From assembly GCF_009914755.1 (NCBI RefSeq), contig NC_060939.1: DNA of 64,000 nt. The stretch is one strand, 5' to 3'. This stretch comes from the human T2T-CHM13v2.0 reference genome, Homo sapiens. The stretch's first letter is position 1. Each line of letters starts with the position of its first letter. Positions 5,185-12,560 of the stretch are shown here, piece by piece. Position numbers and translations under genes: made by a program. The notes beneath the pieces are model-generated. The model had not been told where the DNA came from, searched no databases, and saw only the letters and a program-made list of their open reading frames with translations.

Positions 5185-5810
5185 TTAAAAATAATAGAAA
5201 TTCTTCAAAAAATTAAAAATAGAATAACCATATGATCCAGCAATTCCGCTTCTGGATGTATATTCGGAAGAATGAAAGCAGGGCCTTGAAGTTATTTGTA
5301 CACCCATGTTCACAGTAGCATTATTTATAATAGTCAAAAGGTGGAAACAACCGAAAAATCCATTGGCAGATACATTTAGATCAATAAAATGTTGGTATAT
5401 ACATACGATATCATTCAGCTTTCAAGAGGAAGGAAATCCTGACATGCTACAACAAGATGAATACTATTTCAGCCATAAAGAATGAAATCCTGCCTTTCAA
5501 GGCAACATGAATGGAACTGGAGGACATTATGCTAAGTAAAATAAGCCCATGTCAAAAAGACAAATACTGTATGATTCCACTTATGTGACATAGTGAAATT
5601 CAGAGAGACAGAAAGTAGAAGGATGGTTGCAGGAGTTGCAGGTAGGAAAGAATGGAGAGCAGTTGAATAGACACAGAATTTGTTTTGCACAATGAAAAGG
5701 TTTTGGAGATTGGTTGCACAACAATGTGAAAGATAGTGCTACTAAACTGTGTACTTAAAAATGGCTAAGATGGTAAATTTTATGTTATGTGTATTCTACC
5801 GCATAAAAAA
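5185..5810 (+). mobile_element. L1M 3' end fragment(s)
   Basis: CCATATGATCCAGCAATTCC, GGAGGACATTATGCTAAGT, GGTAAATTTTATGTTATGTG. Confidence 0.8.
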
Positions 5811-6534: not shown

Positions 6535-7640
6535 AAAATTTTTGATGTATTTATTAGTATTTATGAATAACATAGTAACATTCCCATAGATTTGCAGAGA
6601 TCAAATCGAGGTAATTAGCATATCCATAATCTCATTTATCATTTCTTTGTGCTGGGAACATTCAACATCCTCCTCCTAACTCTTTGAAACTGTGTAACAT
6701 ATTGTTGTTAATTACAGTCATCTTACAGTGCTATACAACACTAGAACTTGCTCTTCCTATCTAGCTGTAATTTTGAAACCTTTAACAAATTGCTTTCTAC
6801 CATCCCTGCACCCTATGCTTCCCAGCCTGTAGTATTCTGTTCTACTTTTTACCTCTATGAGATCAACATTTTTTTAGCTTCCACAAATGAATGAGAACAC
6901 ACAGTACTTAATGTTCTGTCCCTGGCTTACTTCACTTAATATGATGTCCTCCAGTTCAATCCATGTGCCTCAAACTATAGGATTTCATTCTTGCTTATGG
7001 CTAAATAGTATTCCATTGTGTATGTATACCATATTTTCTTTATGCATTCATCTGTTGTTAGATACTTAGGATGATTCCATATCTTGGCTATTGTGAATAG
7101 TGCTGCAATAAACACGGGGGTGCCGATGTCTCGTCAATATACTGATTTCCTTTTCTTTGGATAAATGTCCAATAATATATTGTTGGACCATATAATAGTT
7201 CTATTTGCAGTTTTTTGAGGAACCTCCACACTGTTCTCCATAGTGGCTGTACTAGTTTACATTTCCACTAGCCACATTTAAGTGTTCACTTTTCTCCACA
7301 TCTTTGCCAGCATTTGCTATTTTTTGTCTTTTTGATAGTAGCCATTCTAAGTGGGGTGAGATGACACCTCATTGTGGTTTTGATTTGCATTTCCCTGATG
7401 ACTAGTGATGTTGAGCTTTTTAGGAAAACATATTTGTTGGTTATGTGTCTGTCATCTTTTAAGAAATATCTATTCAGGTCATTTGCCCATTTTTCAGTTG
7501 GATTCTTTTTTTTTTTTTTTTTGCTATTCAGATGTCAAGAGTTCCTTGTATATTCTGGATATTAATCCTCTGCTGGATACATACTTTGCAAATATTTTCT
7601 CCCATTCTGTAGGTTGTCTTTTCACTCTGCCAATTTCTTC
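6535..7640 (-). mobile_element. L1MA 3' region, antisense
   Basis: GGCTATTGTGAATAGTGCTGCAATAAAC, CATTGTGGTTTTGATTTGCATTTCCCTGATG. Confidence 0.85.
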
Positions 7641-7719
7641 CTTTGAATTAATATTAATTTTTTAAAGAAAAGTAACTTAAACGCTTGACAATATGGAATT
7701 AAAAATACAGTACCTTCAA

Positions 7720-7850
7720 GCTGGGTGCGGTGGTGCATGCTTATAGCTGCAGCTATCTGAAGGCTGAGGCAGAAGAGGATCGCGTAAGTCCAGAAGTTTG
7801 AGACCAGCCTGGGCAACATAACAGCAAGACTCAGTCTCTTTTTAAAAAAT
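7720..7850 (+). mobile_element. Free Alu monomer (FLAM-like)
   Basis: GCTGGGTGCGGTGG...TTTGAGACCAGCCTGGGCAACATA, single arm. Confidence 0.75.
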
Positions 7851-7904
7851 GGTATATTCAATTTGGGGAACATGCTACAAATCCTCAAAAAACGGGTACA
7901 GAAG

Positions 7905-8073
7905 AAACATACTGCAACACAATAAAAACCACATGAGAGACCCCCACAGCTAGAATCATATGGAATGGGGAAAAATGGAAAGCTTTTCCTCTAAGATCTG
8001 GAACATGATAAGGATGCCCACTGTCACCACTGTTATTTAACATAGTACTGGAAACCCTAGCTAAAGCAATCAG
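7905..8073 (+). mobile_element. L1 ORF2 (RT region) fragment abutting the GC-rich island
   Basis: AAAGCTTTTCCTCTAAGATCTGGAAC..AAGGATGCCCACT..TTAACATAGTACTGGAA..CCTAGC. Confidence 0.8.
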
Positions 8074-8492
8074 TGCAGCCCCTGATATGGCCCCCAACCC
8101 ACCCTGCCCCCTGCCACCAGCAGTGTAGCCCCCCCGCAATAGCGCACCCAACACACCCAAACCGCCCCGCCTCCCCGAACCACGGGCATTGCAGCACCCC
8201 ATAGCACCCTCAACCTGAAACCACCACCCCCCCGCAACAGCCGTGCAGTGCAGCCCTGGATAGGACACTTAGCCCACCTCACTGTTGCCAGCAATACAGT
8301 CTGGGATAGTTTCCCCAACAGGCTCCCCGCCGAGGGCAGTGCAGCCCCGGTTAGGGCCCCCAAACCACCCCCCGGTGCAGGCAGCACAGCCCCAGATAGC
8401 ACACCTAACCAGCCACCCAAGGTGGGCAGTGACGCCTGAGATAGGGCCCCCAACCCGTCCCAGGCCAAGGGCAGTGCAGCCCTGGATAGCCA
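8072..8492 (+). repeat. Degenerate ~45-bp GC-rich tandem repeat, left arm (~9 units; GGCAGTGCAGCCCCnGATAGCGCCCCCAACCC)
   Basis: Units visible near 8072, 8120, 8188, 8246, 8290, 8336, 8381, 8426 and 8471. Confidence 0.85.
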
Positions 8493-8497
8493 CTTAC

Positions 8498-8727
8498 CCC
8501 GATGCTTTTCTACACTCTGGCCGGTTGCAGTGTCCATCGCTGCCACCAACCGCAGCGGGCAAGGCAAGCCAGCGAGGCAAGGCGAGGCAAGCCGGCGAGG
8601 TGGTGAGCCAGGGAGGCCAGCCACAGCCCGGTAGGCTGCAGCCTCCAGCATGCAGTGGCTGGCACCTCCTACTCCAAGCTGGCAATGGAGCAGCTATGAA
8701 GTCAGACGCCGACAAGGCTGGACTAGT
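8498..8727 (-). ncRNA. Putative mirror-image first exon pointing toward the NF1 pseudogene
   Basis: Follows the minus-strand TATA box, is homologous to the plus-strand exon, and ends at a consensus donor GGG|GTAAGT (8497-8492). Confidence 0.5.
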
Positions 8728-8749
8728 GCAACTCTATCTCTTAACATGC

Positions 8750-8976
8750 TTTATATACCGAGATTATAAACTACATGTTCTGAGTGGATGAGAGGAAAAC
8801 ACTAGGCCTACTCTGATTGGACTTTATTGTCACGTTCTGATTGGTTAGCCTAAGACTTGTTCTGATCCAATCAGAACATGAAAATAACGTCCAATCAGAG
8901 TAGGCGTAGATGTTTCTTTCATCCAATCAGAACGTGAAGTCCGAGAACCAGGCCTGCACAACCCCCAGTATATAAG
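8750..8976. promoter_or_regulatory. Putative bidirectional TATA/CCAAT promoter
   Basis: TATATAAA on minus (8757-8750) and TATATAAG on plus (8969-8976). ATTGG at 8816 and 8840; CCAAT at 8867, 8891 and 8923, all in CCAATCAG context. Lies within a GC/CpG-rich island. Confidence 0.75.
8815..8896 (+). ncRNA. MIR5701: miR-5701 precursor hairpin (mature TTATTGTCACGTTCTGATT at 8824-8842)
   Basis: 82-nt GATTGGACTTTATTGTCACG...AACGTCCAATC inverted repeat matches the recalled miRBase entry; copy (-1/-2/-3) not resolvable. Confidence 0.85.
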
Positions 8977-8999
8977 GTATGCTAAGGGGGCGTCGCGCT

Positions 9000-9332
9000 G
9001 TTGCAGGCTATCGTGTGTTAGCCTCTACTTCTCCCGCAGAGTTTGGAGAAAGCGGCAGCAGAGTGTGCTGCCGCAGGCTGGAGCCTGGAACCTGGAGCCC
9101 TGGAGCCTTGAATGGTGTGTGGTGGCAATGGAGAGAGGCAGCTGGCAGTGACAGCTGCTCCGTGCTTGGCTACAGGAAGGAAAGAAGGAGAAGGCACCTA
9201 CCATAGGCTGTAGGCTAGAGCCTGCAGGACTGCGGCTGGCCTCGCTGGCTCGCCTCCCTGGCTGGCCTCGCTGTGGTTGGTGGCAGCGACGGATACTGCA
9301 GCTGGCCAGAGTGTAGAAAGGCAATGGGGTAG
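9000..9332 (+). ncRNA. LINC01193: Putative first exon of CT60/LINC01193-type lncRNA
   Basis: Starts ~25-30 nt after the TATA box and ends at donor GGG|GTAGGT (9329) or TAG|GTAAGC (9333). Position next to MIR5701 and the NF1 pseudogene agrees with recalled annotation; the TSS is estimated. Confidence 0.6.
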
Positions 9333-9339
9333 GTAAGCT

Positions 9340-10575
9340 ATCCAGGGCTGCCCGCGGCGGGGGCTGGTTGGGGTATTATTCCGGGTGTCACTACTTTGGG
9401 TGTACTAGAGTGTTATTTTGGGCGTCACTGCTTTTAGGTGTGCTATCCGGGGCTGCACTGCCCTCAGCAGCGGGTGGGGGGGGGGTTGGTGGGGGGCGGG
9501 TTGGGGTCACTATCTTGGGCTGTATTGATGGCAGCAGTAGGGCTGGTTGGGGGCGCTATTGGGTGCTGCACTGCCCGCGACAGGGGCCGGGTTGGGGCTG
9601 CTATTGTGGTTGCACTGCCGGCGGCATGGTGGTGGGAGGGCTGGTTAGGGTGCGGACTGGTGGGGGTGCTTACTGGTCGGGCTTCATTGCTGACAGCGGG
9701 GTGGGGATGCTATCTGGGGCTGCACTGCCCATGGTGGGGGCTTGTTGGGGGCGCTATGTGGGGCTGCAATGTCCATGGCAGGGGAGAGGTTAGAGGCAGT
9801 ATCAGGTGCTACACTGCTGGTGGTGGGGCGGGGCAGCGGTGGGTGCGGGTAGGTGCTTGGAGGGTGCGGTTTCGGGCGCTATCGGGCCAGACTGCCCATG
9901 ATAGAGGGCAGGTTTGGGTGCGCTACTAGGGGATACACTCCTCACAGCAAGGGGCGGTTTGGGGGTGATACCCGGCCGGTGGCAGGCGGGGTGGTGGGGT
10001 GGGTTGTGGGCACCGTTCGGGGGCTGCACTGTGGTCAGTGGCGGTGGGGCGAGTTAGGTGCTCTATCAGCTGCTGCACTGTTTGTGGTGGGGGCTGGGTT
10101 TGGTGTGCTATCGGGGACCATATTTTTGGCAGCGGTATACAGGTTAGGGGTGCTGTCGGAGGCTGCACTGCCCATGGCGGGGTGCGGGTGGGGTGCACTA
10201 TCCAGGGCATCATTCCCCCTGGGTGGGGGATAGTTGGGGGTGCTATCTGCTATGTAGGGCTGCACTGCTCGTCGTGGGGAGGGGGTTGGGGACCTTAAGG
10301 ATCCATGGCTGCACTATTGACGGCATGGAGCAGGTGGCCGTGCTCTCCGGGGCATCACTGCCCACAGCCGGGGGTTAGTTGGAGGTCCTATCCGTGGCTG
10401 CATGGCCGACGGCAGACGGTAGGATGGGGGAGTTATCTGGTGCTGCGACGTCCGAGGCAGGGATGGGTTGGGGGCGCTATTGGGTTTTACATTGCAGCGG
10501 CGAGGGGCGGTGTTGGGGGCGCTATCCCAGAGCCAACATCAGGCAGCGGATTAGGGGCGCCATCAGGGGCTGCCT
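9340..10575 (-). repeat. Same ~45-bp GC-rich tandem repeat in opposite orientation, right arm (>20 units; GGGTTGGGGGCGCTATCnGGGGCTGCACTGCC)
   Basis: GCTAT..GGGGCTGCACTG recurs every ~45 nt; strongly G-skewed. Confidence 0.85.
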
Positions 10576-11163
10576 TGCTGGTGGCGGCAGAGCTTGCAGC
10601 AACAGGGTCTCCAAGGAAGGAGCCTTCTTCCTCTTTCTGGATTTCAGACTCTAAAAGGCGATCTCCTCCTGCTCCTGCTAGAGCGCAGCGAGCGCACGGC
10701 GTTTCCGCAGTAATCCTGAGCACGGCAAGGACCCCTTACCCGCCGTGGTTCCCGGGGCCACGCCCTTTTCGCTCTGTGTTGCGGAGACCACCTGGCACCC
10801 CTAGGCACGCTGGACACGGAGTGGCGGGGACACCACGGGGAGACAGGGCTCTGTGGGTGGAGGCATCAGGATGGGGAACCGGCATTTGGGTGGGAGGGCT
10901 GGCTGTGTCTGAGTTCCTGCTGATTTTGTTCCCCAAGGAGCGCAGTCCTGGTGGGCCCAGCGGTTCCTGTGGATTGGAGCCAGGCAGTGTGATGTTACCA
11001 GTCACCACTCCAGGTCCCAGTTCCTGGCCCGCTTGAGCCAAAAGGAGAGGCTGGACTTTGGAGGGTGGATATGAGTGCCTTCACTGAGACTGGCCCCTGC
11101 CACCCAGTGGCCAGGATGACAAGGTGAGGCTCTAACGCTATCAGTCTCTGCATTCTCCTCTAG

Positions 11164-11648
11164 GCTTTTTTGGCTTTGTGTGTCCAGCTGTTCCATGCCA
11201 GGAGGAGGAGGAGTTACATGCTGGAAGCTTGCAGATAGCCTGGGGCTGCTGCTCGCCTTGCTGCGGTTGGTGGCAGCTACCGAGACTACCTCGCACCAGA
11301 GCGGTAGGAGGACGGCCAGCTGCGGCCATGGCAGGGGCAGGGCTGCGGCGGTGGCCAGGTAGTAGGAGCTTTGTAGGGTGGGCCAGTGCATTGAGGGCAA
11401 CAGCAGCGATGGTTATAGTGACATCTGTGCTAGTTGTGGCAGCAGCCGCAAGTCCAGGGGCCGGGAAGAGGGAGTAGGAGCGCTGCGGGGCCTGCCCGGC
11501 CAGGCCTAGGGTGGGTTAGGAAGCTTCGGGTGCTGTACCACAGGCCTCGGTGGAAGTGGTGGAGGAACAGCCAGGGCAAGGAGGAGTTCTCCCCCTTCTC
11601 CTGCAGTCTCTGGAGGGCGACCTCCTCCTACTGGCGCATGAGCCCGGT
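11164..11648 (+). ncRNA. Candidate internal lncRNA exon
   Basis: Branch-like CTAAC (11132), pyrimidine tract and TAG (11161-11163). Candidate donors CAG|GTAGTA (~11359) and GGT|GTGAGT (11649). Confidence 0.35.
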
Positions 11649-11689
11649 GTGAGTGTCAGCATATTATCTCACTCTTTCTTCCAATATAA

Positions 11690-12560
<871 letters not shown>

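What the first reader, a model, noticed from the sequence alone, without database searches (positions are those of the whole stretch)
8072..10575. Mirror-image promoter cassette: a head-to-head inverted duplication with two TATA boxes, two homologous first exons and two repeat arrays
Seen: the island is symmetric about ~8856. Read outward, the left side is CGGTATATAAAGCATGTTAAGAG and the right side is CAGTATATAAGGTATGCTAAGGG. CCAAT boxes pair across the axis (8840/8867, 8816/8891, and a degenerate CATCCACTCAGAAC at ~8780 with CATCCAATCAGAAC at ~8920). Each side then carries the same exon end, CGCTGyGGTTGGTGGCAGCGAyGGAyACTGCArCyGGCCAGAGTGTAGAAArGCA..GGG|GTArGT, followed at once by the same ~45-bp GC-rich tandem array in opposite orientation. 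Inference: one promoter + first exon + donor unit was fold-back duplicated into a self-contained bidirectional exon-trap module. Such a module could start transcripts in whatever duplicons lie on either side. It has no LTR, TIR or poly(A) hallmarks.
Basis: partly seen in the sequence, partly recalled or inferred. Interest (0 to 1): 0.8.

Follow-up and report, generated by a model that had tools for sequence, protein, structure and literature searches.

The report
Truncated REP522 palindromic promoter repeat
The mirror-image island is real, but it is one copy of REP522, a known, largely palindromic human repeat already reported to act as a cancer-activated promoter, so it is an ordinary member of a known family rather than a new local invention.

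Summary
Window 8072-10575 is mirror-symmetric. It has a 171-nt core palindrome (axis 8855), three CCAATCAGA boxes per arm, an outward TATA box per arm, a shared exon-like block ending in a GT donor, and 45-bp arrays that are G-rich on the outward strand.

It is not a local fold-back. The same layout recurs at 42 or more places on 12 chromosomes of this assembly. In a tree of half-cores from 23 copies, left halves and right halves form two clades (support 99/98), so the inversion is older than all of those copies.

The centre is the annotated MIR5701-2 hairpin. A preprint states that hsa-miR-5701 lies in a Rep522 repeat. A FANTOM5 meeting abstract describes REP522 as a [quoted passage not shown] strongly enriched among the most cancer-activated CAGE promoters.

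This copy spans about 8072-11680. Its left arm is cut inside the array, one CCAAT box is mutated, and CpG is depleted (observed/expected 0.45), so it is probably silent.

One point I did not find in the searched papers: the six-box core is the slowest-evolving part of the family, with 0.044 transversions per site against 0.165 in its flanks.

The parts
7871..8068 (.). L1 ORF2-like fragment that abuts the truncated left arm. It travels with this subfamily of copies.
   Evidence: Found next to the element in L001/L002/L031 (100%), L004-L006 (92.5-94%) and L003/L032 (91.5% over 199). The junction with the array is shared with chr18:12.22 Mb. The L1 identity is my own recognition and comes from no tool.
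8072..8475 (-). Left 45-bp minisatellite, G-rich on the minus (outward) strand. It is cut short, at 404 bp against 1224 bp on the right.
   Evidence: Lag 45/90/135 are the top self-identities. GC skew is -0.39 to -0.46. It matches the right array in inverted orientation.
8476..8594 (-). Left exon-like conserved block ending in GGG|GTAAGT (GT at 8497-8496).
   Evidence: 82% over 123 to 9233-9351 in inverted orientation. Family alignment.
8595..8737 (-). Left spacer. It would be the body of the leftward first exon if transcription starts near 8727.
   Evidence: Position relative to the TATA box (inference). Poorly conserved between copies, with pairwise identity 0.41 at 8700-8737.
8738..8760 (-). 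Left TATA box string (TATATAAAG reads 8757 to 8749 on the minus strand).
   Evidence: TTTATATAC is the commonest state (6 of 19 copies), with near variants in others.
8770..8945 (.). Core imperfect palindrome (axis 8855) with six NF-Y-type CCAAT boxes, three per arm. The outer left box is mutated in this copy.
   Evidence: RNA fold -98 kcal/mol, z = -15.
8815..8896 (+). Annotated MIR5701-2 hairpin, which is the centre of the palindrome.
   Evidence: Hub annotation. The preprint 10.1101/2021.12.09.471935 says hsa-miR-5701 overlaps a Rep522 repeat (passage). No Rfam family reaches its gathering score here.
8966..8988 (+). Right TATA box string (TATATAAG at 8969-8976).
   Evidence: GTATATAA[A/G/T] in 8 of 19 copies, with near variants in others.
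8989..9232 (+). Right spacer. It would be the body of the rightward first exon if transcription starts near 9000.
   Evidence: Position relative to the TATA box (inference). It includes a 13-bp x 3.1 repeat at 9234-9273 at its end.
9233..9351 (+). Right exon-like conserved block ending in GGG|GTAGGT (GT at 9329-9330).
   Evidence: GT is kept in 15 of 18 type-A ends.
9352..10575 (+). Right 45-bp minisatellite, G-rich on the plus (outward) strand.
   Evidence: Lag 45 is top at 0.384, above all 200 shuffles. GC skew +0.40 to +0.45. Four G-quadruplex-type motifs.
10576..11680 (+). Distal segment of the arm (called 'post' in this report). It carries a third exon-like block at about 11251-11301. Family homology ends near 11680.
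   Evidence: 318 candidates, 40 scored, 41 matches, with many ending at query 1087-1105.. Inverted repeat I18.

Best explanation
Window 8072-11680 is one copy of REP522, a known human repeat. RepeatMasker labels it Satellite/telo. It has been described in print as an unclassified interspersed repeat of about 1.8 kb that is largely palindromic.

**Layout.** The full family layout, read outward from the centre on each side, is:
1. three CCAATCAGA boxes;
2. a TATA box;
3. a GC-rich stretch of 230-330 nt ending in a conserved block and a GT donor;
4. a 45-bp minisatellite that is G-rich on the outward strand;
5. a distal segment of about 1.1 kb.

The inversion that made the two arms is ancient. 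It is shared by every copy examined and did not happen at this locus. This copy belongs to a subfamily (two copies on chr15, one at chr18:12.22 Mb) whose left arm was cut inside the array next to an L1 fragment.

**How it most likely works (inferred).** The CCAAT palindrome recruits NF-Y. With the two TATA boxes it drives divergent RNA polymerase II initiation near 8727 (minus strand) and 9000 (plus strand). Transcripts can splice from the GT donors into whatever lies outside. DNA methylation and H3K9me3 keep the family off in normal somatic tissue. It fires at the 8-cell stage, in tumours and after loss of silencing.

**What is shown and what is inferred.**
- Shown here: the anatomy, the family membership by layout, the age of the inversion, and the slow evolution of the core.
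- Taken from papers: the REP522 name for the MIR5701 site, the palindromic description, CAGE promoter activity in cancer, and the 8-cell peak.
- Inferred: NF-Y binding, the start sites, use of the donors, and the silence of this copy.

The MIR5701-2 hairpin is simply the centre of the palindrome.
For: **Spread.**
- The core was found at 40 of 40 scored places out of 60 candidates, each on both strands, at 81-87% identity.
- Two more chr5 places appear. That makes 12 chromosomes: 2, 5, 7, 9, 10, 13, 14, 15, 17, 18, 21 and 22.

**Layout in 20 other 7-kb loci.**
- The distal segment lies on both sides in 2 loci (L045, L050), on one side in 15, and on neither side in 3.
- It always points outward.
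- In 18 of 18 loci with array hits, the G-rich strand points outward.

**Age of the inversion.** Left and right half-cores of 23 copies form two clades with congruent inner topology, support 99/98.

**Conservation among 19 non-twin copies.**
- Core pairwise identity is 0.87, against 0.41-0.66 in the flanks.
- The boxes are at 0.92, against 0.83 for the rest of the core.
- Transversions per site are 0.044 in the core and 0.165 in the flanks.

**Name and activity, from passages read.**
- miR-5701 lies in a Rep522 repeat.
- REP522 is largely palindromic and enriched among the most cancer-activated CAGE promoters.
- REP522 is enriched in lncRNA exons.
- The REP522-rich BAGE locus carries H3K9me3 in human liver and is active in Tc1 mouse liver.
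- REP522 RNA peaks at the 8-cell stage.
- A paper citing Horie 2017 says REP522 leads to cancer-specific lncRNA expression.

**Geometry.** The box starts lie about 76, 108 and 132 nt upstream of a start near 9000. On the other side they lie about 60, 93 and 117 nt upstream of a start near 8727. These figures are computed. As I recall, NF-Y sites typically lie in roughly this range upstream of the start site.
Against: - No tool here can align the window to the Repbase or Dfam REP522 consensus. The name rests on the MIR5701 overlap stated in one preprint and on the match to a one-line description.
- The hub's list of NCBI-masked stretches does not include 8072-11680.
- No transcript is annotated as starting in this copy.
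- CpG observed/expected is 0.36-0.58 across the element and 0.45 overall. That is what long-term germline methylation would leave.
- The outer left box is CCACT in this copy, whereas 14 of the 19 copies compared carry the intact consensus box there.
- NF-Y binding is not shown anywhere in what I could read.
- Between this copy and chr18:12.22 Mb, the co-duplicated L1 flank is 91.5% identical but the core is only 88% and the other parts 75-86%. So the element as a whole evolves fast. The core being 'slow' is relative to the element and is not proof of selection.
- Alignment error in the indel-rich flanks inflates their divergence.
Confidence: 0.85

Rival explanations
1. This copy is an inert, methylated relic. 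The family may hold promoters, but here the element does nothing beyond being a GC-rich palindromic repeat in pericentromeric duplicated DNA.
For: - CpG observed/expected is 0.45 over 8072-11680.
- The outer left CCAAT box is mutated.
- The left arm is truncated.
- No transcript starts here in the hub annotation.
- The REP522-rich BAGE locus carries H3K9me3 in normal liver.
Against: - Five of the six boxes, both TATA boxes and both GT donors are intact.
- Annotation in multi-copy regions is poor.
- The family is activated in tumours, and this copy is 96-99% identical to its chr15 twin.
Confidence: 0.35
2. The functional product is the microRNA. The palindrome is kept because it encodes the MIR5701 precursor hairpin.
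For: - RefSeq annotates MIR5701-2 at 8815-8896 (hub).
- The core folds at -98 kcal/mol, z = -15.
- 122 papers mention miR-5701 (listing only).
Against: - The preprint read lists hsa-miR-5701 among putative miRNAs that overlap known repeats.
- No Rfam family reaches its gathering score. The best hits are plant hairpin families scoring equally on both strands, which is what any long palindrome gives.
- Conservation is highest in the CCAATCAGA boxes (0.92) rather than spread evenly along the stem.
- It extends over the whole 176-nt core, beyond the 82-nt annotated precursor.
Confidence: 0.07
3. One reading: one promoter-exon-donor unit was duplicated head-to-head at this locus, creating a new module here.
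For: The two arms are 81-82% identical to each other.
Against: - Left and right halves of 23 copies fall into two clades (99/98). The window's left half groups with the left halves of other copies, not with its own right half.
- The unequal distances from outer box to TATA box on the two arms are shared across copies.
Confidence: 0.03
4. REP522 is the relic of a foldback-type mobile element, or a recombination-prone boundary repeat, that spread as a discrete unit. Promoter-like motifs are incidental.
For: - It has long inverted arms built of tandem subrepeats around a central domain.
- Homology between the chr15 and chr18:12.22 Mb copies is confined to 7871-11680. Both sides beyond that are unrelated.
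- More than 10 copies end at the same point, query 1101-1105 of the distal segment.
Against: - No terminal inverted repeat ends, target-site duplications or transposase were seen. ORFs of 90 aa or more in 8000-11800 had 0 Pfam families in the 4 of 7 tested.
- In the asymmetric copies, homology runs more than 3.4 kb beyond the core into shared flanks on different chromosomes. That is the pattern of segmental duplication.
- Published CAGE data show promoter use.
Confidence: 0.05

Closest known systems
REP522 (RepeatMasker Satellite/telo; 'unclassified interspersed repeat')
   Same: - Palindromic layout.
- Multi-copy distribution on pericentromeric and acrocentric short-arm regions.
- Overlap with MIR5701.
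- GC-rich body.
- Published promoter use in cancer and an 8-cell expression peak.
   Different: - The full two-armed copies found here span about 4.9-5.2 kb (L045, L050), against the quoted consensus of about 1.8 kb.
- This copy lacks most of its left arm.
- Many copies are asymmetric, with a different second arm.
LTR12/ERV9 LTR promoters (NF-Y-bound, germline- and cancer-active repeat promoters; recalled, not from a call)
   Same: A repeat-borne promoter with multiple CCAAT boxes. It is silenced epigenetically in somatic cells and can drive neighbouring genes.
   Different: REP522 has no LTR structure and no retroviral context. It is palindromic and therefore two-way. It carries TATA boxes on both sides and spreads with segmental duplications rather than by retrotransposition.
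Cellular bidirectional CpG-island promoters with NF-Y sites (established knowledge, recalled)
   Same: Divergent arrangement, CCAAT boxes between the two start regions, and GC skew pointing away from the centre on both sides.
   Different: Typical bidirectional promoters lack TATA boxes and are not sequence palindromes. Here the two sides are ancient inverted copies of each other, and CpG is depleted.
MADE1/miR-548-type repeat-derived hairpin 'miRNAs'
   Same: An annotated miRNA precursor that is simply the fold of a palindromic repeat. It is listed beside miR-548 in the preprint read.
   Different: MADE1 is a DNA-transposon MITE. Here the hairpin is the CCAAT-box centre of a promoter-like repeat.

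Membership tests
REP522 repeat family | Largely palindromic sequence | tested here: met
   (81-82% between arms). Family-wide. The description is quoted from PMC4896275.
REP522 repeat family | Interspersed, multi-copy in the human genome | tested here: met
   40 of 40 scored places (60 candidates), plus 2 more. 12 chromosomes.
REP522 repeat family | Carries the hsa-mir-5701 hairpin | tested here: met
   The hub annotation places MIR5701-2 at 8815-8896, inside the core. The preprint passage links miR-5701 to Rep522.
REP522 repeat family | Significant alignment to the Repbase/Dfam REP522 consensus | not testable with these tools
The hub's masked list does not include this stretch.
REP522 repeat family | CAGE-defined promoter activity | not testable with these tools
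   Family-level statement only. The primary papers (Kaczkowski 2016, Horie 2017) are not held.
NF-Y-dependent RNA polymerase II promoter | CCAAT pentamers with favourable flanks, upstream of the start site | tested here: met
   Five exact CCAATCAGA and one CCACTCAGA within 8779-8931. By TATA-based prediction they sit 60-132 nt upstream of the starts. The preferred flank and position are recalled knowledge.
NF-Y-dependent RNA polymerase II promoter | NF-Y occupancy and box-dependent transcription | not testable with these tools
   This needs ChIP and reporter data. None was found in the papers containing 'REP522' or in the search.
Bona fide microRNA gene | Stable hairpin precursor | tested here: met
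   -98 kcal/mol, z = -15.
Bona fide microRNA gene | Match to a curated miRNA family model | tested here: not met
   No family reaches its gathering score. The best is plant MIR6288 at 40.5 bits against a threshold of 74, on both strands.
Bona fide microRNA gene | Precise Drosha/Dicer processing and Argonaute loading | not testable with these tools
   No small-RNA data are available here. The preprint groups it with repeat-derived putative miRNAs.
Foldback-type transposon | Defined termini with target-site duplications, or a transposase | tested here: inconclusive
   A common outer end exists at about 11676-11680. Target-site duplications were not examined. 0 Pfam families in the 4 ORFs tested.

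The most novel reading that the evidence does not exclude
The six-box CCAAT palindrome of REP522 is kept by selection as a two-way NF-Y promoter. Duplication scatters this promoter through pericentromeric and acrocentric DNA, where it seeds new 8-cell-stage and cancer-testis transcripts (lncRNAs, possibly BAGE-type genes) on both sides. The outward G-rich 45-bp arrays help by forming R-loops or G-quadruplexes downstream of each start.
Probability: 0.3. Interest if true: 0.5.

Novelty: already known. Interest (0 to 1): 0.25.

Why it matters
The finding does not reveal a new kind of element. It shows what an under-described repeat is made of.

REP522 is counted in many expression surveys as a 'satellite'. 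Its anatomy reads instead like a compact two-way promoter whose CCAAT core is the best-kept part.

If that reading holds, it would:
- explain why REP522 RNA rises at embryonic genome activation and in tumours;
- offer a source of promoters for young pericentromeric genes;
- mean that MIR5701 annotations and the many miR-5701 expression papers may be reading promoter-palindrome transcripts rather than a true microRNA.

Tried and rejected
- **BAGE link by sequence.** I fetched chr21:7.879-7.884 Mb (L051) and listed its ORFs. I saw nothing I could recognise as a BAGE start, so the link rests only on the text of PMC3560060.
- **DUX4-type site.** I searched a recalled short consensus to explain the 8-cell peak. 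The core has no exact site and two one-mismatch sites. The window total of 21 is below the 24.9 expected. Dropped.
- **Coding potential.** There are 7 ORFs of 90 aa or more in 8000-11800. The 4 tested gave 0 Pfam families.
- **Bacterial-type promoter and terminator scan.** It found nothing and is not relevant to a human sequence.
- **Tandem Repeats Finder.** It misses the 45-bp arrays. I replaced it with lag analysis.
- **CTCF-like reading of the conserved block.** Considered by eye only. Only half of the recalled motif fits, so I did not pursue it.
- **Primary REP522 papers.** Kaczkowski 2016 and Horie 2017 are not held.
- **Second batch of 19 genomic regions.** The family statistics therefore rest on 23 copies, not all 42 or more.
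Full report

Reading 7800-10800 and aligning 7000-12500 to its reverse complement gives two strong inverted matches:
- 8770-8940 onto itself: 81% over 175, axis 8855.
- 8476-8594 onto 9233-9351: 82% over 123, axis 8913.5.

The spacers between core and exon-like block differ, at 175 nt on the left and 292 nt on the right. The island is therefore mirror-like but not strictly symmetric.

Both quoted TATA strings are present, at 8738-8760 on the minus strand and 8966-8988 on the plus strand. Exact CCAATCAGA occurs five times in the 64-kb window. All five lie within 8812-8931, two on the minus strand and three on the plus. A sixth box, CCACTCAGA, lies at 8779-8787.

The arrays are too diverged for Tandem Repeats Finder. 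Even so, lag 45 is the top self-identity in both arrays and exceeds all 200 shuffles. GC skew is mirrored, about -0.4 on the left and +0.4 on the right, so the outward strand is G-rich on both sides. As RNA the core folds at -98 kcal/mol, z = -15. That fold is the annotated MIR5701-2 hairpin (hub table).

**2. What is it?** It is a member of a dispersed family, not a local invention.

*Spread.*
- A search of the window's own assembly with 8470-9360 returned 104 matches from 40 scored candidates out of 92.
- A search with the core alone gave 40 of 40 scored places out of 60 candidates. Each matched on both strands at 81-87% identity.
- With two further chr5 places, that makes at least 42 places on chromosomes 2, 5, 7, 9, 10, 13, 14, 15, 17, 18, 21 and 22.
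- Three more copies have a truncated core: chr21:12.33, chr21:12.41 and chr18:14.34 Mb.
- The segment beyond the right array (10576-11680, called 'post' here) also belongs to the family and is more abundant. It gave 318 candidates, of which 40 were scored, with 41 matches. Family homology ends near 11680.

*Layout.* I fetched 7 kb around 20 other copies and mapped the window's parts onto them. The order is always the same: post(-), array that is G-rich on the minus strand, exon-like block(-), core, exon-like block(+), array that is G-rich on the plus strand, post(+).
- The 'post' segment lies on both sides in 2 of 20 loci (chr22:32.59 and 32.67 Mb, about 4.9-5.2 kb end to end), on one side in 15, and on neither side in 3.
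- In 18 of 18 loci with array hits, the G-rich strand points outward.

*The window's subfamily.* The window's copy, its chr15:19.73 Mb twin (96-99% identical) and chr18:12.22 Mb share a short left array. That array abuts the same L1-like fragment. The truncation at about 8068-8072 was therefore inherited.

**3. When did the inversion happen?** Before all copies examined.

I aligned 8700-9010 from 23 copies. I then split each at the axis and built a tree of the 46 halves. Left halves and right halves form two clades with 99/98 support and congruent inner branching. The window's left half groups with other left halves, not with its own right half.

One caveat applies. Each copy was oriented by its better match to the window. 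That choice fixes the labels, but it cannot create two well-supported congruent clades. The local fold-back reading is therefore rejected. An ancient fold-back remains a fair account of the family's origin.

**4. The name.**
- A preprint on miRNAs in T2T sequence states that hsa-miR-5701 overlaps a Rep522 repeat (10.1101/2021.12.09.471935, passage).
- RepeatMasker's label is Satellite/telo (PMC4240582, passage).

I could not align the window to the consensus itself, because no repeat library is on hand. The hub's list of masked stretches omits this region. For these reasons I put the identification at about 0.85-0.9 rather than certain.

**5. How it most likely works.**

*Published, from passages only.*
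- CAGE promoters in REP522 are activated in cancer.
- According to a paper citing Horie 2017, REP522 leads to cancer-specific lncRNA expression (PMC6925957).
- REP522 is more than 2-fold enriched in lncRNA exons over introns (PMC6360812).
- A REP522-rich BAGE locus is H3K9me3-marked in human liver, but carries H3K4me3 and Pol II in Tc1 mouse liver (PMC3560060).
- REP522 RNA peaks at the 8-cell stage (PMC6545021).

*Shown here.* The core is the best-kept part of the family. The figures below come from 19 copies, after dropping the four near-identical twins L031, L035, L048 and L030.
- Pairwise identity is 0.87 in 8770-8945 against 0.41-0.66 in the adjoining stretches.
- The six 11-nt boxes are at 0.92, against 0.83 for the rest of the core.
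- Transversions, which CpG decay cannot explain, run at 0.044 per site in the core against 0.165 in the flanks.
- TATA strings are kept in many copies but not all.
- Among 18 type-A exon ends, the GT at the window's donor column is kept in 15. I chose these rows by eye, dropping the twins and one truncated row.

*Inferred.* NF-Y binds the boxes. The two TATA boxes set starts near 8727 (minus strand) and 9000 (plus strand). The boxes then lie 60-132 nt upstream. The donors splice outward, and the G-rich arrays favour R-loops or G-quadruplexes downstream.

**6. Evidence that cuts the other way.**
Its conserved block of about 60 nt occurs in three contexts per arm (53 instances in 27 sources). 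One context is followed by the donor and the 45-bp array. A second, in asymmetric copies, is followed by a different sequence and a different array. The third lies inside 'post' (window about 11251-11301).
- This copy looks decayed. CpG observed/expected is 0.45 overall, and the outer left box is mutated, whereas 14 of the 19 copies compared carry the intact consensus box there.
- Between the window and chr18:12.22 Mb, homology is confined to 7871-11680. Within it the L1-like flank is 91.5% identical, the core 88% and the other parts 75-86%. The whole element therefore evolves fast, and the core's slowness is relative.
- No transcript is annotated as starting in this copy (hub).

**7. Rivals.**
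- *True miRNA gene.* This is unlikely. No Rfam family reaches threshold, and the best hits are plant hairpins scoring equally on both strands. Conservation also peaks in the boxes and covers the whole 176-nt core.
- *Foldback transposon or boundary repeat.* I cannot exclude this as an origin. However, no coding capacity was found. In asymmetric copies, homology runs more than 3.4 kb past the core into shared flanks on other chromosomes, which fits segmental duplication.

**8. Novelty.** The element, its palindromic nature and its promoter use are in print, so the finding is already known.

I did not find the six-box CCAAT palindrome, its preferential conservation or the age of the inversion described. 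The searches were 'REP522' (14 papers), phrase variants, and NF-Y/CCAAT/bidirectional promoter/segmental duplication/palindrome (1 unrelated paper). Of the 14 REP522 papers, I read the REP522 passages of eight. The two primary papers and all supplements were out of reach and may already cover these points.

Noticed in passing
L036, L039, L042, L046-L049 and others (for example L039:1-3414): Many REP522 copies are asymmetric. One arm is the G-rich 45-bp array type. The other arm has the exon-like block followed by a different sequence, a different purine-rich array, and a stretch with CpG observed/expected of 0.61-0.78. This second arm is homologous over more than 3 kb between copies on chr2, 5, 10, 13, 17 and 22.
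   Followed up: partly
L004, L005, L006 (chr21:12.33, chr21:12.41, chr18:14.34 Mb): These three copies join left-array position 248 directly to core position 130. They have thus lost the left exon-like block, the left spacer and most of the palindrome, while keeping the same L1-like flank as the window copy (92.5-94%).
   Followed up: partly
chr22:32.58-32.82 Mb (L045, L050, L037): Three REP522 copies lie within about 235 kb of a chromosome arm, away from the centromere. Two of them (L045, L050) carry both arms out to the distal segment, and L037 carries one. What genes they flank could not be checked here.
   Followed up: no
window 7871-11680 versus L032: In the chr15/chr18 pair the co-duplicated L1-like flank is 91.5% identical, but the REP522 body is only 75-88%. 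This suggests a raised mutation rate or conversion from other copies inside the element.
   Followed up: partly
window 7871-8068 and distal parts of L034, L036, L039, L041-L043, L046, L049: The L1-like fragment next to the window's left arm also matches, at 69-80%, sequence about 3 kb out on the second arm of asymmetric copies. I cannot tell whether this is a chance overlap of old L1 pieces or a trace of a shared ancestral flank.
   Followed up: no
window 12039-12090 and 11907-12188: A mir-1268-like hit (46 bits, below the gathering score of 83) and SRP-RNA-like hits lie inside an Alu just beyond the end of the element. These are Alu-derived look-alikes.
   Followed up: no
window 5459-5547 and 6924-7013: An unrelated inverted pair (80% over 92) lies upstream of the element. 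It is probably two copies of a common repeat.
   Followed up: no
window 9234-9273: A 13-bp unit (GGCTGGCCTCGCT) is repeated 3.1 times just before the right conserved block. The left arm has the related GCGAGGCAAG-type repeats at about 8560-8600.
   Followed up: no
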